From a virus (taxonomy: Duplodnaviria; Heunggongvirae; Uroviricota; Caudoviricetes): a stretch of DNA of 16,102 bases. The notes beneath the pieces were generated by a model that was not told the DNA's origin, did not search any database, and worked only from the letters and a program-made list of their open reading frames with translations. Of this stretch, positions 4,336-13,153 are shown one piece after another (positions within the stretch are counted from its first letter, which is position 1; every line of letters starts with the position of its first letter). A program made the translations under genes and the position numbers. The stretch spans positions 146,759 to 162,860 of the IMG/VR virus record IMGVR_UViG_3300027673_000001; one strand, written 5' to 3'.

Positions 4336-4908
4336 TTAAGCGGAGACGGTGAGTACTGCTACGTCAGAGGTAACAGGAGCAGCTCCAGAGCCCGAAACTT
4401 CTACTCTGTACTTGTCGCCGTTGTTTGCAACTGTTCTTGCGGTGAGAGCTAGAGAAGCAGAAGTTGCTCCAGGTACGTCAACCCAAGCACCAGTTTCAGC
4501 AGCTGGCTGATATTGCCACTGGTAAGCGAGAGTACCGGAAGGAGCAATGGTTGCTGTGGTTGCAAAAGTTGCTGCTCCGGCCACTGCAGTCTGGTCGGTA
4601 GGCTGAACAGTGATAGTTACTTCCACGTTTACGTCAGGCACAAACAGATCATCTGCTGCGTCTCCTGATGTTGCCACAGGCACGCTCATCGCAACGATAA
4701 GCTCTGCTTTCCAGCGCTTCTTGCCGGATGAGTCCTTGTGTGTCTTGAGAACATACCAGCCTGGGCCCTTGATTCCCTTCTTCTTGTTTGCTTCCAGAGC
4801 AGCTTCTTCTCTGTCTACGAAAAGAAACTGCGTGCCTGCTGGGTAGTCAGCAGCCTTAAGCCAGTTTGGTCTAGACGGTGTAGCGTCTGTTTTACCCCAT
4901 AGTGCCAT
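4336..4908 (-). CDS. Virion structural protein with C-terminal Ig-like domain
   Basis: N-terminal MALWGKTD...PGW motif of T4-like virion proteins. C-terminal ITVQPTDQT...TF...LAYQWQ...DVPGATSASL...GDKYRVEVS...TSDVAVLTV is a classic Ig I-set pattern. AAGGAG SD. Confidence 0.8.
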   Translation of the reverse strand: MALWGKTDATPSRPNWLKAADYPAGTQFLFVDREEAALEANKKKGIKGPGWYVLKTHKDSSGKKRWKAELIVAMSVPVATSGDAADDLFVPDVNVEVTITVQPTDQTAVAGAATFATTATIAPSGTLAYQWQYQPAAETGAWVDVPGATSASLALTARTVANNGDKYRVEVSGSGAAPVTSDVAVLTVSA

Positions 4909-4913
4909 TCTCT

Positions 4914-5534
4914 TTACTCCTTGATTTGCTTGGTGATGAAGGAAGCGAGAGAATCTACGCTAAGCCCTTCTGCTATTGGTTGAGTTTCAACTGACTCAGT
5001 CTTAGGCGCTGGCTTTTCTTCAGCTTCCTTCTTCTTGATGTTGCTTACTGCTTTCTTGCCTGCCTTGTAGAGCATTGCGCTACCTCTAGGTGCGCTCTTT
5101 ACACCTTCTTCGACAGCCTCTTCATCATCATCATCCTCTTCGTCACTTTCGTTCATGGCGTCAAGAACATCCATGAGATCTTCATGATCCAGGCTTTCGA
5201 GGAAGGACATGACTTCTTCTTCGGTTTCCATGGAGTCGATAATATCGAGGCTTTCCTTTACCTTCTTCTTGTAGGAGCCATACTTGCCAGGTGGACGACC
5301 ACGCCCACGCTTAACAGGCGCGCCGCCGGTTTCACGGTTCGCTGGCTCTTCGCTTTCACCATCTTTGTTGTAACGTCTAGTGACTTTAGTCACGCCATCT
5401 TTCTTTTCGATGTCGTGCCTAGCTCCCCTAGTAGCACCGGTCATGCCCTTTGCGGCGCCGTGCTTTTTGTTGTATTCGGGAGTACCTGGCCATGCTTCTA
5501 GCAGGCTTTCGATGAGTTGATTATAGGATTTCAT
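4914..5534 (-). CDS. Putative internal head protein with AT-hook and acidic segment
   Basis: N-terminus MKSYNQLIE|SLLE|A (CTS-like), AT-hook KRGRGRPPGK (aa 75-84), acidic tract ESDEEDDDDEEAVEE. AAGGAAG SD and late box upstream. Confidence 0.65.
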   Translation of the reverse strand: MKSYNQLIESLLEAWPGTPEYNKKHGAAKGMTGATRGARHDIEKKDGVTKVTRRYNKDGESEEPANRETGGAPVKRGRGRPPGKYGSYKKKVKESLDIIDSMETEEEVMSFLESLDHEDLMDVLDAMNESDEEDDDDEEAVEEGVKSAPRGSAMLYKAGKKAVSNIKKKEAEEKPAPKTESVETQPIAEGLSVDSLASFITKQIKE

Positions 5535-5558
5535 AGTCTTCCTTTGTTGGACTTGTTT

Positions 5559-5565
5559 TATTTAG
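5559..5565 (-). promoter_or_regulatory. T4-type late promoter box CTAAATA
   Basis: Intergenic, 24 nt upstream of ATG 5534. Matches the TAAATA core of the T4 gp55 late consensus TATAAATA. Confidence 0.6.
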
Positions 5566-5578
5566 TTGAAGAGAAATG

Positions 5579-7216
5579 TTACTTGGGTTCCTTGGCTTTG
5601 ACAACATATTTGTCATCGCCTACGGGCTTCTGGACGGTGAGCTCTTCCTTGCCGTCCTTAATCTTAGTACCTGGCTTCAGATGTGTTTCGTTAACCATCC
5701 CTGCGTGTTCTGCTCCGTGCACTTTGTATCCGGACTTCTTGTAGTGAGCCTTCGCTTTTTCTACGGCGGTCTTTTCGTCTGCTGCGGTAACACGAACAAA
5801 CTTTTGCTTGGTCGCCTTACGCATTGACACAGCAGGGTGGTCTGGTTCCGATACCGTTACTGCAACACGATGCTTTTGCTCAGTTACTGTTTCAACTTCC
5901 TCATTGGCATGCTTCTTTATGTCATTGGCAAACTGCTTCTTGGTTGCTTTGATGATACCAGAGTAACGCTTATCACCCTTCTTGAAGTCGCCCTTGGCAT
6001 CAGCAGCGGTCGCATCGGCCGATGCCTTCTTCTTGTATTCGCCTAGCTTCTCGCTGGATAGTTCCTCAATAGATTCGCCTTCTGAGTGTTCAATAGAGTC
6101 ACCCATGTAATGACCCCTACCACGACCATATCCCATTGCTCTAGCCTGTGCGGCTGACTTCTTTTGGTCGGCTGTTAACCCATAATCTGGTCTGCTATTC
6201 AGGCGATTTAGGGCCTTCTTAACACCAGCAGCTCTCTTTTCCTTCTTAGGGTGGTCAGGGTTTTGTTCGTCCTGATGAGCTTTCTTCATGTAGCTTCGAA
6301 CAGTGTCTCTGTAGAGTTCTTCAATCTGTTCTTCTTCATTGATTGCCCTAACCTTGACAGTGCGGATATTATTTTGCTTCTCGAGCTTCTTAGCAAATTC
6401 ACGAGCATCGCGCTCTGCCTTATCGGGGGAGTCGTTTTTACTTTTCATGAACTTCTTTGTGGAAACCTTATAGTCGAGGTCTGACCAAGTCACAACAAAA
6501 GCAGACTCTTCAATCTCTGTTTCTTCTTTAGTAATTGAGTACCTAATCCTGGACAATACACCATGTTGGTCAGGGTACTTACCTGTTTTCTTTTTTACTT
6601 TGTTTGCTGCTCTAGCTTCGCCTTCTTCTCTGCCTAGGACTCTTTGCTTTTCTTTCTTAGATGCAGTCCCAGCAGACCACTTATCGTTTAGGCGTTCTCT
6701 GTCTTTTTCTGCTGCATCAGAATACTTCAGCATCTTATCTACTGACAACTCATCAATCTGTTCAGAGTCTTCAGACACTTTCTTACCAAGGAGTTTGTTC
6801 TTCTCCTTGTTCTTCTTTACGACTTCCTTGACCTTCTTGGCTAGGGCTGGATCTGCTCTAAGCATCCAACCTGGTCTATGGTTGCCTTTAACTTCGTCAA
6901 CAGATGCACTTTCAAGTCTAACGTCGTCGGGCAGTGTGATGGAGTTCTTAACTTTGTCCTTTACTGCTTTCTTCATTGGCTCTTTTTCGTTACCATCTTT
7001 GTCAGCATCGATGAAGTCAGGCTTTTGTGCCTCGTTCATCTTTCTAGCTAGGACAGTTCTTCTTGCTGCGAGTTTAGCCATGGACTTCTTGATTGAAGTC
7101 TTCATAGTTTCGTCTTTGGCTCTGGAATAGACTTTATTGAGGTACTCAATTCTATCCTTGATGTCCTTGAGTTCGTTCTCTTTTTCTACTCTGTCGTTTT
7201 CGTTGATGTCTTCCAT
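5579..7216 (-). CDS. Modular Lys/Glu-rich putative internal head polyprotein
   Basis: 545 aa with three I[DE]EL-x7-Y..K..A repeats, a KPDFIDADKDGNEKEPMKKA motif and many hydrophobic-x-E sites. No catalytic motif seen. Confidence 0.65.
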   Translation of the reverse strand: MEDINENDRVEKENELKDIKDRIEYLNKVYSRAKDETMKTSIKKSMAKLAARRTVLARKMNEAQKPDFIDADKDGNEKEPMKKAVKDKVKNSITLPDDVRLESASVDEVKGNHRPGWMLRADPALAKKVKEVVKKNKEKNKLLGKKVSEDSEQIDELSVDKMLKYSDAAEKDRERLNDKWSAGTASKKEKQRVLGREEGEARAANKVKKKTGKYPDQHGVLSRIRYSITKEETEIEESAFVVTWSDLDYKVSTKKFMKSKNDSPDKAERDAREFAKKLEKQNNIRTVKVRAINEEEQIEELYRDTVRSYMKKAHQDEQNPDHPKKEKRAAGVKKALNRLNSRPDYGLTADQKKSAAQARAMGYGRGRGHYMGDSIEHSEGESIEELSSEKLGEYKKKASADATAADAKGDFKKGDKRYSGIIKATKKQFANDIKKHANEEVETVTEQKHRVAVTVSEPDHPAVSMRKATKQKFVRVTAADEKTAVEKAKAHYKKSGYKVHGAEHAGMVNETHLKPGTKIKDGKEELTVQKPVGDDKYVVKAKEPK

Positions 7217-7219
7217 TTT

Positions 7220-8806
7220 TTAATCCTTAGAGAGTCTATCTTTTTCGAACTGCCTTACTTTAGGCAACATCTTTACTGCGAGTCTAGCAATGACTGGCTT
7301 CATACGTTCCAGCCTCTTTTCTAGCTTTTCCTTTTCGCTAACAGTCAGCTTACTTAGATCCTTTTTAGCTAGCCTCTTCTTTAGAGCTTGAATAGCCAGG
7401 CGACGTGCTCTTTTGCTAGCTACCTTACCGTCGCTTCTTCGACTTAGAGCTATTCTTGCTCCTCGTTCTCTCTTGGCTTTTGTCCTAGCCATCTTGACCT
7501 TTGCTCTCATTCTAGCTATTCTGGAAAGTACTTCGTTGAGTCCTTCAAAATTTTCGACTTCTACTTCCTGATCGTTTTCGTCAAGTATAACAAAGTCGTC
7601 ATCATCGTAGGCTTCGTCGGATATGAAGTCATCAGTAACTTCAAGAACTATGGAGTCAAGTTCCTCATCCTCTATCGACTCATGAGCCTTGTAGTGTATC
7701 TTTCTTATTCTAGCGTACCTTTTTGACTTATCAGAAGGTAGGGTACTTAGGTGCATTAAGTGATGAGTTTCGTCTTCCTTAGGTAGATCAAGCTCAGGAA
7801 CTTCGCCCTCTGTTAGACTCTTCGCTAGGTTTTCATCAAAGGATATTTCCATCTTCCTGGCAAGATCCAACATCCTTCTTAGGATATCCTTTGCTTCCTT
7901 GTTTAGGACTTTTCTCTTTGACAACCTGAGTGCTGAATTGACTATCATTACAGGATCTGTCTTTGTCTCCGCTTCCTCAAACCCCAGAGCCATGGCAATG
8001 ATTCTAGCTGCTCTTATCTTTTCTTGTTGCTTTACCACGACTGCCTCGTTTACTTTTTCTGTTGGGATGATGTCCTTGAGCCAGACCTTTTCCTGGTTGT
8101 CTAGAATGACATAGTTTGATCCCCTGAACGTAACAGTCCTCTCGAGGATTCCGTGCGTTACTATGTCGCCAATACAGAACAACTCGTTCTTAACGTACTC
8201 TTCTCTCGCTTCGGTTCCTTCTATGATGTTCATTGCGGCCCTTAGGTCATTGAACATCATCTTTGCTGATGCGTTTGATATTGTCTTAGGAACACCAGAA
8301 AGGAACGCAGTGAAGTTATTATCCTCTGCTGCCTTTCTCATTTTGGATGCGGACATCCCAGCGGTGCCGTCGGCGTCTGGGTCTCTTTCACCCGCAGACA
8401 CTACGAGTATCGAATCGAAGTTGTAGTCCTTGCCGTTGTACTTGTCCAGGAGTGTCTTATACTCCAGAACTCTATCCGAACCTGCTACGACTATGAGTTT
8501 GGAGTATTTGGTGTTTAGGGCCCTGGCGGCTTCCATGATAGTTCTAATGCTATCTGTAGCGGGCTGAATGTTGACGCCCTTGAAAGCCATCCTTGCGAAC
8601 TTAACCTTTTGGTTAACATTCAAGGGATTCTTTTTGGGGTCTTGTGTCTTGGTCAGATATATGACATGATCCGCAGAGTACTTCTTTGACAGCACTTCGA
8701 CGGCCTTTACCAGAACCCCATGCCCTATCGTAGGTGGGTTCATCCTGCCCCAGGCTAGGACAATAGTCTTGCTCTTGGCTTCTAGTATAGGTTTCATATA
8801 TCCCAT
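7220..8806 (-). CDS. HIGH-superfamily nucleotidyltransferase ('cytidyltransferase'-like) with additional C-terminal modules
   Basis: IVLAWGRMNPPTIGH (HIGH-like), VVAGSDRV, VSAGERDPDA and GMSASKMR (KMSKS-like) motifs in aa ~14-190, followed by a highly basic C-terminal module. Confidence 0.85.
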   Translation of the reverse strand: MGYMKPILEAKSKTIVLAWGRMNPPTIGHGVLVKAVEVLSKKYSADHVIYLTKTQDPKKNPLNVNQKVKFARMAFKGVNIQPATDSIRTIMEAARALNTKYSKLIVVAGSDRVLEYKTLLDKYNGKDYNFDSILVVSAGERDPDADGTAGMSASKMRKAAEDNNFTAFLSGVPKTISNASAKMMFNDLRAAMNIIEGTEAREEYVKNELFCIGDIVTHGILERTVTFRGSNYVILDNQEKVWLKDIIPTEKVNEAVVVKQQEKIRAARIIAMALGFEEAETKTDPVMIVNSALRLSKRKVLNKEAKDILRRMLDLARKMEISFDENLAKSLTEGEVPELDLPKEDETHHLMHLSTLPSDKSKRYARIRKIHYKAHESIEDEELDSIVLEVTDDFISDEAYDDDDFVILDENDQEVEVENFEGLNEVLSRIARMRAKVKMARTKAKRERGARIALSRRSDGKVASKRARRLAIQALKKRLAKKDLSKLTVSEKEKLEKRLERMKPVIARLAVKMLPKVRQFEKDRLSKD

Positions 8807-8820
8807 TGATGTAGTGTTTA

Positions 8821-9555
8821 TTATTTATGGTTTCCCAGGATTGACTTGTGAAGCTTGATATTCAACTTGCTCTGTATCATTTCCCATGCTTCTTTGTTCT
8901 TACCTGCAGAGACTAGAGCCTTAAGTTTTACCTTCTCTTCCGTTGTCGCTATAGAGAAGAATTTAACCATTTCCATGGCGCCTACGTTCCCCTCATATGA
9001 TGCTTCCTTGAGAGTGTCAGCCCAGTTCTTAATAATGACGTTTGATTTTATACCAGACAAATACACCTTTGCGCTATTCCTAGTGAAGTTCAGGACTTCG
9101 ACTATCTCCTCGGCTTCTCGTTTTGGGGCACCATACCACAAGCTAATGTGTGGGGAAAAGTCAGGGTATGTGTGATTGCAACCCATTCCCTTGAGGTACT
9201 CGTGTATGTTTCTCAGGGTCTCAGATTCTATCTTTGCCACAATGGTAGCCTTTGCTTCGTCTCTTTCGCCATCCTTCGGTAAGTCATCGAAGCAAGCATA
9301 ACCAGAAACTATACCATGGCAGGAACCAGTGAAGCTCATTTTAACCATTTCGCCCAATAGAAAAGGGTCAAGGTTACTATCCGGAGAATACATCAAGGTG
9401 ATGTGTTTCTTTTCTGCAGGCACTTCTACGCCTTCTGCAGGCCTCAGGTTTGGTGTTATCGTCAGCTCATATATCTCAGGGTTGTCAACGCCTATGGAGA
9501 GGTAGTTGCCCTTGTTCTGAATCTGGCCTGTGTAGTATTCCTTGAAGCTTACCAT
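8821..9555 (-). CDS. acb1: Acb1/gp57B-like 2H phosphodiesterase (anti-CBASS nuclease family) with ~60-aa C-terminal extension
   Basis: H51-I-T53 (KKHITLMYS) and H136-I-S138 (HTYPDFSPHISLWY). N-terminal SFKEY...NYLS and C-terminal IIKNWADTLK align with T4 gp57B as recalled (EFKDF...LYVA; IHSTICYS; HDFDDYTPHITLSY; LKLDWADDLK). Confidence 0.85.
   Translation of the reverse strand: MVSFKEYYTGQIQNKGNYLSIGVDNPEIYELTITPNLRPAEGVEVPAEKKHITLMYSPDSNLDPFLLGEMVKMSFTGSCHGIVSGYACFDDLPKDGERDEAKATIVAKIESETLRNIHEYLKGMGCNHTYPDFSPHISLWYGAPKREAEEIVEVLNFTRNSAKVYLSGIKSNVIIKNWADTLKEASYEGNVGAMEMVKFFSIATTEEKVKLKALVSAGKNKEAWEMIQSKLNIKLHKSILGNHK
8822..8828 (-). promoter_or_regulatory. T4-type late promoter box ATAAATA
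   Basis: Overlaps the last codons and stop of the Acb1-like gene (CAT AAA TAA), 15 nt upstream of ATG 8806. Confidence 0.6.
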
Positions 9556-10193
9556 GCCTTGCAGCTCCAGTATCTTGCCTTCGTCTTTGGACCTGGGTTA
9601 TCGCAGTTGTGTCTAGCCCTAAAGGACTTCCTACGCTCAGGAATGTGCTTCTTGATGCTCATGTTCTTGTCGCCAAACTCTACTTTGACAACATTGCCTT
9701 TTTCGTTCTTGACGTAGACTTTGGACTTCTTAACGTCGCCCTTCATGGGTTTGTTTAGGGGTTTGCCTTCCTCTTCGTAGATGAAAATAATCTCACCCTC
9801 AGTCCCATCTTCGAAGATGAACCCGTCACCAAGTTGCATTTCTTCTGGTATGCAGTTGGGCACTTCCTTGCCATTCTTTTTCTTCATGCCGAGTTGTTTG
9901 TATCCCTTCCAGCAAGGATCTTTATTCTCTTCAGACTCGTTGAAGAAATGTTTATCATGTGCTTCAAGTTTTTTATTCCCGAACTTAGATCTCAACAACA
10001 TACCGATATACTCTTGCTTTGACTTTGCTGAGTGTACTCTAAATTGTTGATTAGCCATTCTTTTCAGAGAATCTGTAGGTTGCTTTTTCAGCATGGATAT
10101 ATGGTCCGCTACTTCTTTCACGTCGTCGGGAGCAGCATCATATTTCTTTTTGTAAGATTCTTCCAATGATTGGTATTCTTTGAATGATGTCAT
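9549..10193 (-). CDS. Modular basic protein: CTS-like leader, CWKGY...PNC module, C-terminal FRARHNC...YWSC (DUF6321-like) module
   Basis: True start probably ATG 10193 (MTSFKEYQSLEE; ATGA overlap with the upstream stop, GGAG SD), not 10220. Both motifs are recurrent in phage hypothetical proteins. Confidence 0.7.
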   Translation of the reverse strand: MTSFKEYQSLEESYKKKYDAAPDDVKEVADHISMLKKQPTDSLKRMANQQFRVHSAKSKQEYIGMLLRSKFGNKKLEAHDKHFFNESEENKDPCWKGYKQLGMKKKNGKEVPNCIPEEMQLGDGFIFEDGTEGEIIFIYEEEGKPLNKPMKGDVKKSKVYVKNEKGNVVKVEFGDKNMSIKKHIPERRKSFRARHNCDNPGPKTKARYWSCKAW

Positions 10194-10387
10194 TTGCTCT
10201 TCTCCGCTCTTTCTATCCATGCCTTGGCGTCACGCCTAAGGTCAAACGTATCGTATATGTATCCGTCCTTGGTATCAACTACGTTGTAGGCAGACTTTAT
10301 TCTTCCTCTTGTGTCAGACACTTCGGTTTTCTTTATGGCGTACTTTGACTTGGATTGCTCTGTTATGTAATCTTGCAAGCTAATCAT
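10190..10387 (-). CDS. Small basic putative internal protein (65 aa)
   Basis: ATG 10387 overlaps the upstream stop (ATGA). Starts MISLQDYITE|Q (CTS-like) and fills the gap between two coupled genes exactly. Confidence 0.65.
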   Translation of the reverse strand: MISLQDYITEQSKSKYAIKKTEVSDTRGRIKSAYNVVDTKDGYIYDTFDLRRDAKAWIERAEKSK

Positions 10388-11625
10388 CTCTGCCAACCTT
10401 TCATGAACATAGGGTCGAAGTTTGCCAATGAAAACTCATAGCGATCAACCAGCTTGATGGCTCCATGGTCTGATATAGCAACAAACCCCTCAGGTGATGT
10501 TACTCTAAATCCGCTCTTAGTTTTGAGGAATGTACCTATGTTGTTTGCCTGGTTCATCTTCTTGATGAGATATAGCTTTGCCTCTGCAATCATCTTGGAG
10601 AGTTCAAACAAGGCGATAATTTCTCTCTTTGGGTGCACAAGGAAGAAGTTTAGTATCTTAGTGCGACGAGCATCTGTTCTGTCTTTACCTGCCTGTGTTT
10701 TCATTCCAGATGCTTCCTTAGTAAAGCGATCATCTATGAACTTGTAAAGACCATCTACGTGAGCTTCTACGTTTGTAATCTTCTCTCCTGCTCTTACCTT
10801 GCTGTTGTCATAGGTGTGAACAAGCATAAGGAGGTCTGGGTCCTTATGTATGGCGTTGAGTGTCTGAGAGGGCATCTTTTGAAACGCTCTGCCTATGTTA
10901 GCTAGCATTGCGTCAAACGTTTTTCTCTCTTCAGGTGTGAATGTTGCTGCGCCTGTCACATCCTTGAACGTAGCATCTTCCATCCATGAGGAAGATGACT
11001 TACGAAACTTTGACGTTATGTTCTTACCAAAGCTAGCACTCAGATTTTGTATTGAGTCGCCTTCGTAGGTTGTGTGCCAAACGATTCCTATGTTGCTACC
11101 TAGTATCCTCTTGCCTAGCGCAGAGTTTAGGGGGACGGCGTAGAGTATTGTGTTGGGATGAAAGGTAATGTACTTGGTGCCATCTATAGTCTGGCTTTTC
11201 AAGTCATTACGGGTGAACATGATGTCTCCCTGGTAAACACCACTCTTTATCCCCAGCTTCTTACACTCCGTGAAAGCCACTTTTAGCTTGTCTGCTAGGT
11301 CGCCTGAGGTATCGGAGTCTATGTCCTCATGACTGTAGTATAGCTTGGGGTTCTTGTTAAACAAGCCTTTCTTGGCTATGAAGAACTTTCCGTTTTCGGG
11401 GTTGATACCAGCAAAGACAGCTGGCGCCCCGTCCCATTTCACTGTGGTTACGGTCTTCTTGTTGTCGTTGCCTTGGCTTAGCATATCCCTAACGTCTCTC
11501 AGGAACATGATTGCCTTGCGTGTGCCTTCAACACCCAGGTCAAAGACTAGCTGTTCTAGGTGCTGCATATGGGTATTGGCAGCAGCCTCATTCATATAGG
11601 ACTTAAGAGATCTTACATTAGGCAT
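10384..11625 (-). CDS. ATP-dependent ligase-fold (RNA ligase-like) nucleotidyltransferase, DUF6267-like
   Basis: Motif I TVK63WDG, motif III-like GVYQGDIMF, motif IV PE379GFV, motif V-like AIK391LVDR. N-terminal NTHMQHLE is typical of this T4-like family. Confidence 0.7.
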   Translation of the reverse strand: MPNVRSLKSYMNEAAANTHMQHLEQLVFDLGVEGTRKAIMFLRDVRDMLSQGNDNKKTVTTVKWDGAPAVFAGINPENGKFFIAKKGLFNKNPKLYYSHEDIDSDTSGDLADKLKVAFTECKKLGIKSGVYQGDIMFTRNDLKSQTIDGTKYITFHPNTILYAVPLNSALGKRILGSNIGIVWHTTYEGDSIQNLSASFGKNITSKFRKSSSSWMEDATFKDVTGAATFTPEERKTFDAMLANIGRAFQKMPSQTLNAIHKDPDLLMLVHTYDNSKVRAGEKITNVEAHVDGLYKFIDDRFTKEASGMKTQAGKDRTDARRTKILNFFLVHPKREIIALFELSKMIAEAKLYLIKKMNQANNIGTFLKTKSGFRVTSPEGFVAISDHGAIKLVDRYEFSLANFDPMFMKGWQR

Positions 11626-12425
11626 TTGAACTCTGCTTTGTTTTCTATAATGTTGACTGTCTTACCATCTATGGGTGCTATGTTGTAGGGGGAAGAGTTC
11701 TTAGGCAGAGCAAATTCGATGGTAAACGTAAACTGGTATCCCTGAGCACCAATCCTTCCTTTGGATTTTTCCTCGGCGTCAGCCTTTGTGACGCCCTTGG
11801 ATTGGCAACGAACACGAGCCGTGATCCTACACACATCCTCAAACCTGGGGATCAAAGGTTGTCCCAGCTTAGCCATTCTTTGATTCAACCCAAGAGGGTC
11901 TTGACTTCCCAACAGATAAAACCCATGAGTACCTACGTTGATGTAATAGGTGCTTTTCAGGTTATAATACCTAGTCATGGAGTTTGAGGGCAGCTCCATC
12001 TTTATGTCAGGACACGTCTTGAGGTCCATGTCATAGCGATCTCTTAAGGGAATGCCTAGCATTTGTCTTTCCCATTCAGGCGTTCTATCAGAGACGTTAT
12101 AAACAGGCATGGTCCACTTGTCGTTGATCTTTTGTAGAACACCAGAGAACTTTGCCAAATCTGCCAGAAACTGCTTTTCTGTTTCGTCGTGCTCAATCTC
12201 TCCAAACCTCCAATGTGGCTTGGATCTAGCATAGGCCTTGATAACAAGGGAGCCGCCAGCAGTTGGTGATATCTTTAGTTCACACCCAGCTTGCTTACCT
12301 CTTACGGTTAGCATCAGGTCAGGCCTGGTGTGTGAAGCGCCAGCAGTTATTCCGTCAGACAGGTCAAATTTCTTGAGGAACTTTGTGGCGTTTTCCTCAT
12401 ACACAAACCCTTGTTGAGCCGCCAT
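11613..12425 (-). CDS. PD-(D/E)XK restriction-endonuclease-like protein (paralog B)
   Basis: GFVYE10...AGASHTRP35D36L...GCE49LK51. AAGGAG SD and TAA-ATG junction with the upstream paralog. Confidence 0.7.
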   Translation of the reverse strand: MAAQQGFVYEENATKFLKKFDLSDGITAGASHTRPDLMLTVRGKQAGCELKISPTAGGSLVIKAYARSKPHWRFGEIEHDETEKQFLADLAKFSGVLQKINDKWTMPVYNVSDRTPEWERQMLGIPLRDRYDMDLKTCPDIKMELPSNSMTRYYNLKSTYYINVGTHGFYLLGSQDPLGLNQRMAKLGQPLIPRFEDVCRITARVRCQSKGVTKADAEEKSKGRIGAQGYQFTFTIEFALPKNSSPYNIAPIDGKTVNIIENKAEFKCLM

Positions 12426-13115
12426 TTATGGTTTCTCCTTTGGATCAACATCCAAGTCATGATGTGACTTATCCGCATCCTTGAGACCCATAACGATTAG
12501 AGCACCGTATTTCTTCTTGCCGTTTTTGTCGGTGCCTCTGTACTTCATTCTGGCTCTTAGTTGAGTTTTTCCATGAAGTTCCGGTGAACCCAACTTGCCC
12601 TCGTCATGGCCGGTGTGGTAGAAACCATGCCCTCCACCAATTTGGATATAGTTGGTCTTTCTGTCCTTGCCGTAATGAGCCTTGATTGGATCAGCATCTG
12701 GGTGCATATGGTAAACGTTACCCTTCTGCAGATCCTTATCATAGTCTCCGGTGGGCTTATCCCACTGCTTGTTTACTTTCTCAAGGAAACCCGTGGCATG
12801 AATAGCTTCTGCTGTGTGGGGATACTTCTTTGCTGCCTTGGGGGAAATATGCCATCTTTCACCGTCATGATGAAGTTCGATTTGCCCGAACATGGCTTTG
12901 TGATCGGCCTTGATTTCTAGGTTGTGTTCCTTACCATTGTGGTGGAACTTCGCATCAGGGGCGTCAGCAGAAGACCCGGCCACTTTGGCGTCCTTGTCTG
13001 CTTTCCCGTGTTTCTTCAGGCGATCGTTGATAGTGACTTCATAGTCTCTCCCTCCTTGCCCTACGGCCTCGGAAAGATACTTTGCGTATGAATAGTCTTT
13101 GAAATTTTGAAACAT
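12426..13115 (-). CDS. PD-(D/E)XK restriction-endonuclease-like protein (paralog A), CTS-like leader
   Basis: MFQNFKDYSYAKYLSE|A leader, then GRDYE26...AGSSADAP53D54A...NLE67IK69. Confidence 0.7.
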   Translation of the reverse strand: MFQNFKDYSYAKYLSEAVGQGGRDYEVTINDRLKKHGKADKDAKVAGSSADAPDAKFHHNGKEHNLEIKADHKAMFGQIELHHDGERWHISPKAAKKYPHTAEAIHATGFLEKVNKQWDKPTGDYDKDLQKGNVYHMHPDADPIKAHYGKDRKTNYIQIGGGHGFYHTGHDEGKLGSPELHGKTQLRARMKYRGTDKNGKKKYGALIVMGLKDADKSHHDLDVDPKEKP

Positions 13116-13116
13116 A

Positions 13117-13153
13117 AAAACCCCATAAATGTATTGACTATTTATGGGGTTTT
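13117..13153 (-). terminator. Perfect 14-bp hairpin after the helicase gene, containing a late-promoter box (ATAAATA, 13145-13139) and the RBS of the next gene
   Basis: AAAACCCCATAAAT (13117-13130), 9-nt loop, ATTTATGGGGTTTT (13140-13153). Immediately after the helicase stop (13158) and 1 nt before ATG 13115. Confidence 0.8.

What the first reader, a model, noticed from the sequence alone, without database searches (positions are those of the whole stretch)
4914..13115. Late-expressed cassette of enzymes with capsid-targeting/prohead-protease leaders: a possible packaged and injected counter-defence kit
Seen: consecutive genes begin MFQNFKDYSYAKYLSE|A (13115), MPNVRSLKSYMNE|A (11625), MISLQDYITE|Q (10387), MTSFKEYQSLEE|S (10193), MVSFKEYYTG (9555), MGYMKPILE|A (8806), MEDINE|N (7216) and MKSYNQLIE|S (5534). 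Only paralog B (12425) lacks such a start, and none of the flanking replication genes has one. Three of the four minus-strand TAAATA boxes I found by eye lie 15-24 nt upstream of starts in this block. Known: T4 internal proteins use the leader MKTYQEFIAE| (IPII/III) or MKTFKEF... (IPI), and Alt uses MELITE|. These leaders are removed by the Glu-specific protease gp21, and the proteins are injected with the DNA. Inference: here the cargo is not only small IPs but a set of enzymes (2H phosphodiesterase, ligase-fold NTase, HIGH NTase, PD-(D/E)XK nuclease) that would act before any phage transcription.
Basis: partly seen in the sequence, partly recalled or inferred. Interest (0 to 1): 0.88.

Follow-up and report, generated by a model that had tools for sequence, protein, structure and literature searches.

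The report
Capsid-targeting leaders on phage enzyme cassette
In this uncultured T4-like phage, a run of late genes for enzymes (a restriction-type nuclease, a ligase-like enzyme, an Acb1-like phosphodiesterase, an NMNAT-like transferase) starts with the short tag that phage T4 uses to load proteins into its head, so they are probably packed in the virion and delivered with the DNA.

Summary
All quoted N-termini exist. Five of the nine genes carry a full T4-type capsid-targeting leader: hydrophobic residues at positions 4 and 7, then (L/I/M)-x-Glu. Three carry a partial one, and paralog B has none.

A scoring matrix trained only on outside sequences puts 6 block genes in the top 9 of 235 ORFs (p = 3e-8). 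The same leader heads 96% of DUF6267 homologues, 93% of cytidyltransferase-like, 69% of nuclease-family and 68% of Acb1-like homologues. It also marks the syntenic gp41–gp61 blocks of Melnitz, HTVC008M, DLP6, C48C1 and S-CRM01.

The genome encodes gp21 protease, gp22 scaffold and gp23. Published virion proteomes of cyanophages S-SM1, S-SCSM1 and S-CREM2 contain the cytidyltransferase homologue and its block neighbours.

The enzyme assignments held:
- HhaI-like PD-(D/E)XK nuclease (Z 11.8).
- Acb1 family (Pfam, above the cut-off).
- HIGH-motif transferase.
- Ligase-type fold (moderate support).

Late expression rests only on CATAAATA boxes and a terminator. Cleavage, injection and a counter-defence role are untested; only the Acb1-like enzyme points to counter-defence.

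This scan has already reported similar leader sets in at least six other uncultured T4-like phages. I rate it a new variant of a known mechanism.

The parts
13117..13153 (-). Hairpin plus U-run (intrinsic terminator) between the gp41 helicase stop and the first block gene. Its 5' arm holds the late-promoter-like box CATAAATA (13146-13139), 24 nt before the ATG at 13115.
   Evidence: Fold -17.2 kcal/mol, z = -4.6, 0 of 200 shuffles as good. Sequence. Box position.
12426..13115 (-). Paralog A, 229 aa. Leader MFQNFKDYSYAKYLSE|A followed by an HhaI-like PD-(D/E)XK nuclease domain (D54, E67, K69).
   Evidence: phrog_26930. AF2 pLDDT 91.5. R.HhaI 6uke_X Z 11.8, rmsd 3.7, 176 aligned, followed by MspI, I-Ssp6803I, NhoI, Hjc and HinP1I. 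Invariant D54/E67/K69. Homologues carry the leader.
11613..12425 (-). Paralog B, 270 aa. Same nuclease fold family, no leader. It begins at the position of A's mature N-terminus, so it is the presumed unpackaged, cytoplasmic copy.
   Evidence: Alignment A2: 26% identity to A, catalytic D/E/K columns kept. phrog_26930 2e-6.
10384..11625 (-). DUF6267 protein, 413 aa. Leader MPNVRSLKSYMNE|A followed by a ligase-type nucleotidyltransferase-like fold (K63-W-D-G, E379-G, K391) with a large helical insert.
   Evidence: PF19782 2e-105, profile starts at residue 17. 114/119 homologues carry the leader. Invariant residues. AF2 pLDDT 81 with residues 1-19 disordered. RNA and DNA ligase matches Z 6.3-7.6 over 167-188 aligned residues.
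10190..10387 (-). Small basic protein, 65 aa. Leader MISLQDYITE|Q. The mature 55 aa have pI 9.6, like a classical internal protein.
   Evidence: ATGA overlap with the upstream stop. Second-best leader score in the genome.
9549..10193 (-). 214-aa protein. Leader MTSFKEYQSLEE|S, a CxxGY...VPNC motif, and a C-terminal RHNC...YWSCKAW domain.
   Evidence: The C-terminal domain stands alone behind its own leader in C48C1 (MKKFKQYIDE|G) and is fused to the transferase in Melnitz. The motif is shared with virion protein S-CREM2 gp160.
8821..9555 (-). Acb1-like 2H phosphodiesterase, 244 aa (H51-x-T53, H136-x-S138). The N-terminus MVSFKEYYTG has positions 4 and 7 but no Glu. A 60-aa C-terminal module follows LKE184|AS.
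   Evidence: PF23474 Acb1 1e-10, 41.9 bits against a cut-off of 27. PDB 7t26 Acb1 5e-5. Homologues begin MISFKQYLxE...GNYVSI. T4 57B begins MMEFKDFSTG. Module context.
8822..8829 (-). Second CATAAATA box, 16 nt before the ATG at 8806.
   Evidence: The same octamer precedes the portal-adjacent, tail and baseplate-region genes of this genome, and TATAAATA precedes gp22.
7220..8806 (-). Cytidyltransferase/NMNAT-like HIGH-motif nucleotidyltransferase, 528 aa (T26-I-G-H29) with a long charged C-terminal half. Shortened leader MGYMKPILE|A.
   Evidence: phrog_3041 2e-57 and phrog_395 1.5e-50. PF01467 17.1 bits, below the cut-off of 21. 111/119 homologues carry the leader. Orthologues are virion proteins in S-SM1, S-SCSM1 and S-CREM2.
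5579..7216 (-). 545-aa Lys/Glu-rich basic protein (pI 9.5). Starts MEDINE|N, like the T4 Alt propeptide. Contains a PDFIDADKDGNEKEPMKKA motif.
   Evidence: The motif is shared with virion proteins S-SCSM1 ORF92 and S-CREM2 gp111. The C-terminal part matches phrog_26930.
5559..5565 (-). CTAAATA box, 25 nt before the ATG at 5534 (weaker late-promoter-like site).
4914..5534 (-). 206-aa protein. Leader MKSYNQLIE|S, an AT-hook-like RGRGRPPGK and an acidic tract.
4336..4908 (-). Adjacent 190-aa virion protein with no leader (conserved MALWG start, Ig-like C-terminal part). It closes the late block.
   Evidence: phrog_613 'head protein' 1.5e-41. The homologue S-SCSM1 ORF95 is annotated as a virion protein. 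The MALWG start is conserved in Melnitz, HTVC008M and DLP6.

Best explanation
The genes between the gp41 helicase and the gp61 primase form this phage lineage's internal-protein locus.

Most of its products begin with a roughly 10-residue propeptide of the T4 capsid-targeting type: Met, two polar residues, a hydrophobic residue at position 4, two polar residues, a hydrophobic residue at position 7, then (L/I/M)-x-Glu.

Proposed mechanism, with what is shown and what is inferred:
1. The block is cut off from upstream early/middle transcription by a terminator and is transcribed late from CATAAATA promoters. Inferred from motifs.
2. The leader binds the gp22/gp21 prohead core, so the protein is built into the prohead. 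Inferred by analogy with T4; supported by homologues found in virions.
3. gp21 cuts after the Glu and frees the mostly basic mature proteins, which stay with the DNA. Inferred.
4. They leave with the DNA at infection and act before any phage gene is expressed. Inferred.

The cargo consists of enzymes rather than the small inhibitor proteins known from T4: an HhaI-like nuclease, a ligase-type nucleotidyltransferase-like protein (DUF6267), an Acb1-like 2H phosphodiesterase and an NMNAT-like transferase. Small basic proteins are also present.

The leaderless nuclease paralog B would be the copy that stays in the cytoplasm.

My odds: leader is a head-targeting signal and most of these proteins are virion cargo, about 0.75. 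Delivered into the host and active early, about 0.5. Mainly counter-defence, about 0.3.
For: - Leaders are present and enriched.
- The conserved positions are those shown to matter in T4 IPIII: targeting at 4 and 7, processing at 8 and 10 (PMC9026906). T4 IPII/III MKTYQEFIAE and IPI MKTFKEF...ITE were read from the T4 genome.
- The leader is conserved on four unrelated families: DUF6267 96%, transferase 93%, nuclease family 69%, Acb1-like 68%.
- It lies outside the folded domains: the Pfam profile starts at residue 17 and AF2 gives residues 1-19 as disordered.
- Syntenic leader-bearing blocks occur in Melnitz, HTVC008M, DLP6, C48C1 and S-CRM01.
- gp21 (PF03420), gp22, gp23 and gp20 are present. 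gp21 and gp22 start with LLTE|S and LLEE|S.
- Virion proteomics of relatives. S-SCSM1 ORF89-93 and 95, in the same gp41-gp61 interval, are annotated as virion proteins; ORF89-92 start with leader-like N-termini (MDSKTFNSLSE|A, MATVAETLLALNE|I, MKSFLQFLKE|A, MTHLNDISKVYME|K). The S-CREM2 gp154 transferase (MKNFSSFLTE|A) is a virion protein. The transferase was detected in S-SM1 virions and is a cyanophage core gene.
- CATAAATA lies 16-24 nt before two block genes. CATAAATA or TATAAATA also precedes five head-, portal- and tail-region genes, and a related AATAAATA precedes only one other, doubtful ORF (Fisher p = 0.01).
- A terminator follows gp41.
- Mature products are mostly basic, pI 9.2-9.6, against about 5 for the leaderless neighbours.
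- The leaderless paralog B starts at A's mature N-terminus.
Against: - There is no direct evidence for this phage: no virion proteome, no N-terminal mapping, no expression data.
- The published proteomes used fully tryptic searches and do not show cleavage. Their authors themselves note that contamination by abundant proteins is possible.
- I did not find the DUF6267, nuclease or Acb1-like homologues themselves listed in a virion proteome.
- In this phage three leaders are degenerate: the 2H protein has no Glu, the transferase leader is shortened, and the 545-aa protein has only MEDINE.
- ATAAATA is not over-represented in the genome as a whole (16 seen, about 21 expected).
- No mature part is homologous to T4 IPI-III.
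Confidence: 0.7

Rival explanations
1. The proteins are packaged and delivered through the leader, but the kit serves host takeover and nucleic-acid handling rather than counter-defence. The HhaI-like nuclease would cut unmodified host DNA while the phage's modified DNA is spared. The ligase-like enzyme would seal or repair nucleic acid at entry. The NMNAT-like enzyme would adjust the nucleotide or NAD pools.
For: - The nuclease is closest to a type II restriction enzyme (Z 11.8) and keeps its catalytic residues.
- GCGC is not avoided in the phage genome (observed/expected 1.12), as expected if its own DNA is protected in some other way.
- The authors of the cyanophage proteomes propose metabolic priming for the NMNAT-like protein.
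Against: - The 2H enzyme passes the Pfam threshold for Acb1, a known anti-CBASS enzyme.
- T4's CTS cargo IPI-III are all anti-restriction proteins (PMC12373910).
- The specificity of the nuclease cannot be read from 15% identity.
Confidence: 0.35
2. The leader takes the proteins into the prohead core, but there they act as assembly or core components. Like most of the scaffold, they are degraded and expelled before DNA packaging, so nothing functional is delivered.
For: gp21 and gp22 of this genome begin with similar (L)xE-ended N-termini. In T4 most core proteins are cleaved to small peptides (established T4 biology; PMC9026906).
Against: - Homologues are detected in CsCl-purified mature virions of three cyanophages.
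- The cargo keeps the catalytic residues of four enzyme families under strong conservation, which an assembly filler would not need.
Confidence: 0.1
3. The shared N-terminus is not a capsid address. It could be a translation-initiation or mRNA feature, an oligomerisation helix, or a recognition tag for a modifying enzyme, as this scan proposed for a shared tag in phage RB43. On this view the virion detections are carry-over of abundant late proteins.
For: - The authors of the S-CREM2 proteome raise contamination as a possibility.
- An earlier scan finding (e1-127136) shows that a shared N-terminal tag can have a different meaning.
Against: - Conservation is at the amino-acid level and at the same positions as the T4 determinants.
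- The tag always ends in a gp21-type site.
- It occurs in genomes that have S77 protease genes, next to virion genes and behind late-promoter boxes.
- A leaderless paralog exists.
Confidence: 0.08

Closest known systems
T4 capsid targeting sequence (CTS) of internal proteins IPI, IPII and IPIII, removed by prohead protease gp21 (Mullaney & Black 1996, as reviewed in PMC9026906; Ip1-3 functions in PMC12373910)
   Same: - An N-terminal propeptide of about 10 residues with hydrophobic residues at positions 4 and 7 and (L/I)-x-E at 8-10 (MKTYQEFIAE|A against MKTFKSFLVE|A, MISLQDYITE|Q).
- The tag is the only thing shared by otherwise unrelated proteins.
- The genome has gp21, gp22 and gp23.
- The products are mostly basic.
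- The genes sit in a variable locus.
   Different: - The cargo is mainly 23-60 kDa enzymes, not small stoichiometric inhibitors.
- The locus lies between gp41 and gp61 in Kyanoviridae-type phages.
- No mature part is homologous to IPI-III.
- Leader length is variable (9-16 residues), and some leaders are degenerate.
- Nothing has been shown experimentally for this lineage.
T4 Alt (ADP-ribosyltransferase packaged in the head, 6-residue propeptide MELITE|)
   Same: It is an enzyme that is packaged, processed by gp21 and injected. The 545-aa protein starts MEDINE|N.
   Different: No ART domain is present here. Resemblance is limited to four of six propeptide residues.
Acb1 (T4 gp57B and relatives; PF23474, PDB 7T26)
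   Same: 2H fold family with both HxT/S motifs and a Pfam score above the cut-off. T4 57B itself starts MMEFKDFSTG, much like MVSFKEYYTG here, and lies next to ipI.
   Different: - Acb1 has not been reported as a virion protein, to my knowledge.
- Most homologues found here carry a complete cleavable leader.
- The window's copy has an extra 60-aa C-terminal module.
- The substrate is untested.
Virion-associated cytidylyltransferase/NMNAT-like proteins of T4-like cyanophages (S-SM1 T4-GC190, S-SCSM1 ORF91, S-CREM2 gp154, S-CBWM1)
   Same: Orthologous N-terminal transferase domain (31-36% identity) in the same genomic neighbourhood. They were detected by MS in purified virions.
   Different: In the passages I read, those papers report the detection and consider carry-over, and they do not name a targeting leader. 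Here the leader explains the detection and extends it to the neighbouring genes.
Ejection proteins of giant phages (phiKZ, SPN3US), processed by their prohead proteases
   Same: Many enzymes and proteins are packaged in the head after propeptide removal at a Glu-ending motif.
   Different: Different protease lineage and motif context, large propeptides and an inner-body structure. I did not test for homology.

Membership tests
T4-type CTS / internal-protein system | N-terminal propeptide of about 10 residues with hydrophobic residues at positions 4 and 7 (the targeting determinants) | tested here: met
   Five genes match fully, and the 2H and transferase genes match partly. The feature is conserved in homologues.
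T4-type CTS / internal-protein system | Propeptide ends in a gp21 site, (L/I)-x-E | tested here: met
   LSE, MNE, ITE, LEE, ILE, LIE and INE in seven of nine genes. Absent in the 2H protein and in paralog B.
T4-type CTS / internal-protein system | Genome encodes the S77 prohead protease and the scaffolding core | tested here: met
   PF03420 2e-40, PF25623 7.5e-61, PF07068 2e-143 and PF07230 6e-174.
T4-type CTS / internal-protein system | Late expression together with the head genes | tested here: inconclusive
   CATAAATA boxes and an upstream terminator only. I found no transcript data.
T4-type CTS / internal-protein system | Protein present in mature virions | not testable with these tools
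   Literature on relatives only: the transferase and its block neighbours in S-SM1, S-SCSM1 and S-CREM2.
T4-type CTS / internal-protein system | Leader removed by the protease, and protein injected with the DNA | not testable with these tools
   No N-terminal peptide data were held in the supplement I searched.
T4 IPI/IPII/IPIII protein families | Sequence homology of the mature part | not tested
   I made no direct comparison with the T4 IP mature parts. The block proteins fall into other families (DUF6267, Acb1, cytidyltransferase PHROGs, phrog_26930). They share the address, and I do not claim membership of the IP families.
Acb1 (PF23474) | Profile score above Pfam's gathering cut-off | tested here: met
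   41.9 bits against 27, E = 1e-10. PDB Acb1 7t26 at 5e-5.
Acb1 (PF23474) | Two HxT/S catalytic motifs of the 2H fold | tested here: met
   H51-I-T53 and H136-I-S138, read from the sequence and from the alignment to 7t26.
Acb1 (PF23474) | Hydrolysis of cyclic oligonucleotide signals | not testable with these tools
   This needs a biochemical assay.
PD-(D/E)XK nucleases (R.HhaI-like) | Fold match that stands clear of the background | tested here: met
   6uke_X Z 11.8, rmsd 3.7, 176 residues. The next matches are other PD-(D/E)XK enzymes at Z 4.6-5.8. The model has pLDDT 91.5.
PD-(D/E)XK nucleases (R.HhaI-like) | Catalytic D ... E-x-K | tested here: met
   D54, E67 and K69 are invariant in 39 sequences, paralog B included.
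Covalent nucleotidyltransferases (RNA/DNA ligase superfamily) | Motif I KxDG, motif IV EGxV, motif V lysine | tested here: met
   K63-W-D65-G66, E379-G380-x-V382 and K391 are invariant in 48 sequences.
Covalent nucleotidyltransferases (RNA/DNA ligase superfamily) | Fold match to a solved ligase adenylyltransferase domain | tested here: inconclusive
   - NgrRnl Z 7.6 over 182 aa.
- T4 Rnl2 Z 6.7 over 177 aa.
- Trl1 Z 6.3 over 188 aa.
- DNA ligase Z 6.5.
The family signal is consistent but within the tool's background range. Foldseek found no significant hit, and the profile found no PDB sequence hit.
HIGH-motif nucleotidyltransferases (PF01467; NMNAT/cytidylyltransferase type) | Profile match and (T/H)xGH motif | tested here: inconclusive
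   Pfam gives 17.1 bits, below the cut-off of 21. PHROG cytidyltransferase families match at 2e-57 and 1.5e-50, T26-I-G-H29 is present, and many homologues carry PF01467. The substrate is unknown.

The most novel reading that the evidence does not exclude
Across Kyanoviridae-type T4-like phages (cyanophages, pelagiphages, methylophages and their uncultured relatives) the T4 capsid-targeting signal is conserved and serves as a general loading tag for enzymes.

On this reading, virions deliver a ready-made restriction-type nuclease, a ligase-like enzyme, an NMNAT-like enzyme and an Acb1-type anti-CBASS phosphodiesterase together with the DNA. The injected proteome of these phages could then be read directly from sequence.

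A corollary: Acb1 began as, or in many phages still is, an internal head protein. T4's own gp57B keeps a vestigial, Glu-less leader beside ipI.
Probability: 0.35. Interest if true: 0.8.

Novelty: new variant of a known kind. Interest (0 to 1): 0.62.

Why it matters
T4-like phages of cyanobacteria, SAR11 and methylotrophs are among the most abundant viruses in water.

If their virions carry enzymes addressed by a recognisable tag, three things follow:
- The puzzling 'non-structural' hits in cyanophage virion proteomes get a mechanism.
- Injected effectors can be predicted from genomes and metagenomes.
- Some counter-defence (Acb1-type signal degradation) and host-attack functions (a restriction-type nuclease) may act from the first second of infection, before any phage gene is expressed. 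That changes how the timing of defence and counter-defence is modelled.

It would also give DUF6267, a widespread family of unknown function, a context as ligase-like virion cargo.

Tried and rejected
- DNA search of the block against 50,697 phage records (megablast): no match. Relatives were reachable only at protein level.
- Foldseek against the PDB gave nothing significant for either model. Only the exhaustive aligner gave usable matches.
- Sequence and profile searches of PDB chains found no ligase for DUF6267 and nothing for the transferase.
- Complex prediction of gp22 scaffold with the 65-aa leader protein returned no verdict (score 0.01, controls not run). It counts neither for nor against binding.
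- I suspected that Sullivan's virion 'core' protein T4-GC15 was DUF6267. The supplementary table places it among the baseplate genes, so I dropped the idea. I could not establish from the parts I read whether any DUF6267 orthologue has proteomic support.
- Per-gene expression classes for homologues: the pelagiphage transcriptome paper does not include HTVC008M, and the P-HM2 paper's held supplements list no phage gene classes for these genes.
- Peptide-level evidence for or against leader cleavage was not in the S-SCSM1 supplement.
- Sigma-70-type promoters are not enriched in the block (14 found against 11.1 +/- 3.4 in shuffles).
- GCGC avoidance, as a hint to the nuclease's specificity: none seen.
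- A rigid gapless matrix under-scores leaders with a shifted Glu, so I report it as a ranking test only.

Full report
**Context.** The window is the last 16.1 kb of a 162,860-bp genome. All real genes in the window are on the minus strand. The order is uvsX, a small ORF, gp41 helicase, then the block in question. After it come a 190-aa virion protein, three small genes, gp61 primase, nrdB and nrdA. The closest cultured relatives share about 50% identity in gp41. They are Methylophilales phage Melnitz, T4-like cyanophages (Kyanoviridae), Pelagibacter phage HTVC008M and Stenotrophomonas phage DLP6. The structural module elsewhere in the genome encodes gp23, gp22, the S77 prohead protease gp21 and the portal gp20.

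**Observation.** The starts at 10193 and 10387 each overlap the upstream stop as ATGA. The start at 11625 is backed by an 85%-identical homologue that begins MPNVRTFKSYVNE. Public gene calls for this genome clipped two leaders: DUF6267 is on record as 403 aa and the transferase as 525 aa.

I read the T4 comparators from the T4 genome instead of relying on memory:
- ipII and ipIII begin MKTYQEFIAE|A.
- ipI begins MKTFKEF...ITE|A.
- alt begins MELITE|L.

In T4 the first ten residues of IPIII are sufficient for encapsidation. Residues 4 and 7 carry targeting, and residues 8 and 10 carry processing (PMC9026906).

Measured against that, the nine genes fall into three groups:
- Five have complete leaders: 13115, 11625, 10387, 10193 and 5534.
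- Three are partial. The 2H gene (MVSFKEYYTG) keeps F4 and Y7 but has no Glu. The transferase (MGYMKPILE|A) is a three-residue-shorter version of the leader seen in a homologue (MGNMKTIKSILE|A). The 545-aa protein (MEDINE|N) resembles only the Alt propeptide.
- Paralog B has none.

**Statistics.**
- A strict pattern finds 4 block genes and one spurious internal start among 235 ORFs.
- A position matrix trained only on leaders of foreign DUF6267 proteins ranks 6 of the 9 block genes in the top 9 of 235 (p = 3e-8). Without the DUF6267 gene itself it is 5 of 8 in the top 8 (p = 5e-7).
- A loose pattern gives 5/9 in the block against 15/226 elsewhere (p = 2.7e-4). Two of the outside hits are gp21 (MKFIIDSLLTE|S) and gp22 (MTVEATIQSLLEE|S), both prohead-core proteins.

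**Conservation.** Four unrelated families were searched in large protein collections, and the leader comes with each of them:
- DUF6267: 114 of 119 homologues begin M(K/L/I)x(F/L)Kx(Y/F)(I/L)xE(A/E), for example MKTFKSFLVE|A.
- Transferase: 111 of 119, for example MITYKELLE|A and MKDYKQLIKE|L.
- Nuclease family: 36 of 52 by the strict spacing, and most of the rest with a longer spacer.
- Acb1-like family: 42 of 62, for example MISFKQYLxE...GNYVSI.

The leader lies outside the folded domains. The Pfam DUF6267 profile starts at residue 17, and AlphaFold leaves residues 1-19 unstructured.

The syntenic intervals after gp41 in related phages carry leaders on orthologous and on different genes:
- Melnitz: MQGFKTFLSE|A, INFSKYITE|D, MKKFSEIIE|A, MKNFKNHIAE|E.
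- HTVC008M: several comparable leaders.
- DLP6: MMKFTQFLAE|S, MKNIKDILE|A.
- C48C1: several comparable leaders.
- S-CRM01: several, including one on an 821-aa Ser/Thr kinase (MISFDQFLSE|K).

Domains are shuffled among leader-bearing proteins. The C-terminal domain of the 214-aa protein stands alone behind its own leader in C48C1 and is fused to the transferase in Melnitz.

**Experimental support from relatives.**
- In S-SCSM1 the GenBank record marks ORF89-93, 95 and 97 as MS-detected virion proteins. All lie between gp41 and gp61. ORF91 is the transferase orthologue with the leader MKSFLQFLKE|A, and ORF92 and ORF95 share segments with the window's 545-aa and 190-aa proteins.
- Within that S-SCSM1 interval, the four ORFs with leader-like N-termini are all virion proteins, as are three ORFs without one.
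- In S-CREM2 the transferase gp154 (MKNFSSFLTE|A) and its neighbours gp155, gp156 and gp160 are virion proteins.
- Sullivan et al. found the transferase (T4-GC190, a cyanophage core gene) in S-SM1 virions.
- These authors note the repeated detection of transferases and kinases and consider carry-over. The passages I read name no targeting signal. A full-text search for 'capsid targeting' together with 'cyanophage' found only a T4 review, and 'DUF6267' appears in no paper held.

**Expression signals.**
- Between the gp41 stop and the first block gene lies a 16-bp hairpin followed by a U-run (-17.2 kcal/mol, z = -4.6). Its 5' arm contains CATAAATA, 24 nt before the ATG.
- A second CATAAATA lies 16 nt before the transferase gene, and a CTAAATA lies 25 nt before the 206-aa gene.
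- Genome-wide, ATAAATA falls within 60 nt upstream of a start nine times. Two are block genes, six lie in the structural region, including gp22 and portal- and tail-region genes (five with a clear start), and one is a doubtful ORF.
- S-CRM01 also has an annotated terminator just before its block.
- All this fits late transcription but does not prove it. The heptamer is not enriched overall, and I found no transcript data.

**What the cargo is.**
- Paralog A folds with high confidence (pLDDT 91.5). It matches R.HhaI at Z 11.8 (rmsd 3.7, 176 residues), far above the next hits, which are also PD-(D/E)XK enzymes. D54, E67 and K69 are invariant.
- The 2H protein passes Pfam's Acb1 threshold and matches the solved Acb1. 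It has H51-x-T53 and H136-x-S138.
- DUF6267 has invariant K63-x-D-G, E379-G and K391. Its model aligns over about 180 residues with NgrRnl, T4 Rnl2, Trl1 and a DNA ligase at Z 6.3-7.6. The signal is consistent but not decisive.
- The transferase matches phage cytidyltransferase PHROGs strongly and has T-I-G-H. Its substrate is unknown.
- The remaining products are charged and mostly basic.
- Paralog B aligns with A from A's predicted mature N-terminus, so it is a natural leaderless control.

**Interpretation.** The simplest account is a T4-type internal-protein system whose cargo is enzymes. What is shown here: the tag, its conservation, the head machinery, the enzyme folds, and virion detection of homologues. 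What is inferred: binding to the core, cleavage, retention in the head, injection and early action. 'Counter-defence' has homology support only for the Acb1-like enzyme.

**Relation to earlier scan findings.** Earlier scan notes on this window about the ligase motifs and the Acb1 fusion agree with my tests. The scan has also reported comparable leader sets in at least six other uncultured T4-like or large phages. The phenomenon is therefore recurrent and is not a new kind of system. I rate it a new variant of a known kind, with interest 0.62.

Noticed in passing
window 8821-9005 (residues 185-243 of the 2H protein): The 60-aa C-terminal module (YxGNIGxMEMxKF...) is a mobile domain. It occurs alone, behind short leaders, or inside larger proteins. 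In 60 of 63 occurrences it is directly preceded by (L/I/V/M/F/T)-x-E-(A/L)-(S/A/V). It may be a unit released by the prohead protease, or a core-binding piece.
   Followed up: partly
L002:15953-16411 (T4 gene 57B, next to ipI): T4 Acb1 (gp57B) begins MMEFKDFSTG. This has the hydrophobic positions 4 and 7 of a CTS but no Glu, just like the window's MVSFKEYYTG. Most metagenomic homologues carry a complete cleavable leader. Whether T4 Acb1 is head-associated appears never to have been asked.
   Followed up: partly
window 10384-11625 and 7220-8806: The public protein records for this genome start DUF6267 at M11 (403 aa) and the transferase at M4 (525 aa), which clips the leaders. Automatic gene calls can hide this signal.
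   Followed up: yes
G000:C1:27525-29272 (L010:2526-4273): The gp22 scaffold and the gp21 protease themselves begin with leader-like N-termini that end in LxE (MTVEATIQSLLEE|S, MKFIIDSLLTE|S and VLTE|G).
   Followed up: no
window 4914-5534: The 206-aa leader-bearing protein has an AT-hook-like RGRGRPPGK followed by a long acidic tract (DEEDDDDEE). The mature pI is 5.0, unlike the other, basic, cargo proteins.
   Followed up: no
window 5579-7216; L006 ORF92; L007 gp111: A near-identical motif, PDF(I/L)DxDKDGNxKEPMKKA, is shared by the 545-aa protein and two MS-confirmed cyanophage virion proteins that are otherwise dissimilar.
   Followed up: no
L001:1-917 (Melnitz hhaIM), and window 12426-13115: Melnitz encodes an M.HhaI-type methylase a few kb from its block, while the window's packaged-type nuclease is structurally closest to R.HhaI. 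In this genome GCGC is not avoided (observed/expected 1.12), whereas GGCC (0.44), CGCG (0.56) and GATC (0.62) are.
   Followed up: partly
L009:8682-11147 (S-CRM01 g130): In S-CRM01 an 821-aa Ser/Thr kinase sits in the same block and starts with the leader MISFDQFLSE|K. This fits the reported frequent detection of kinases in cyanophage virions.
   Followed up: no
window 4336-4908: The 190-aa virion protein (phrog_613) has a strictly conserved MALWG start in Melnitz, HTVC008M, DLP6 and S-SCSM1, and no leader. Different records annotate it as S-layer protein, tail fibre or head protein.
   Followed up: no
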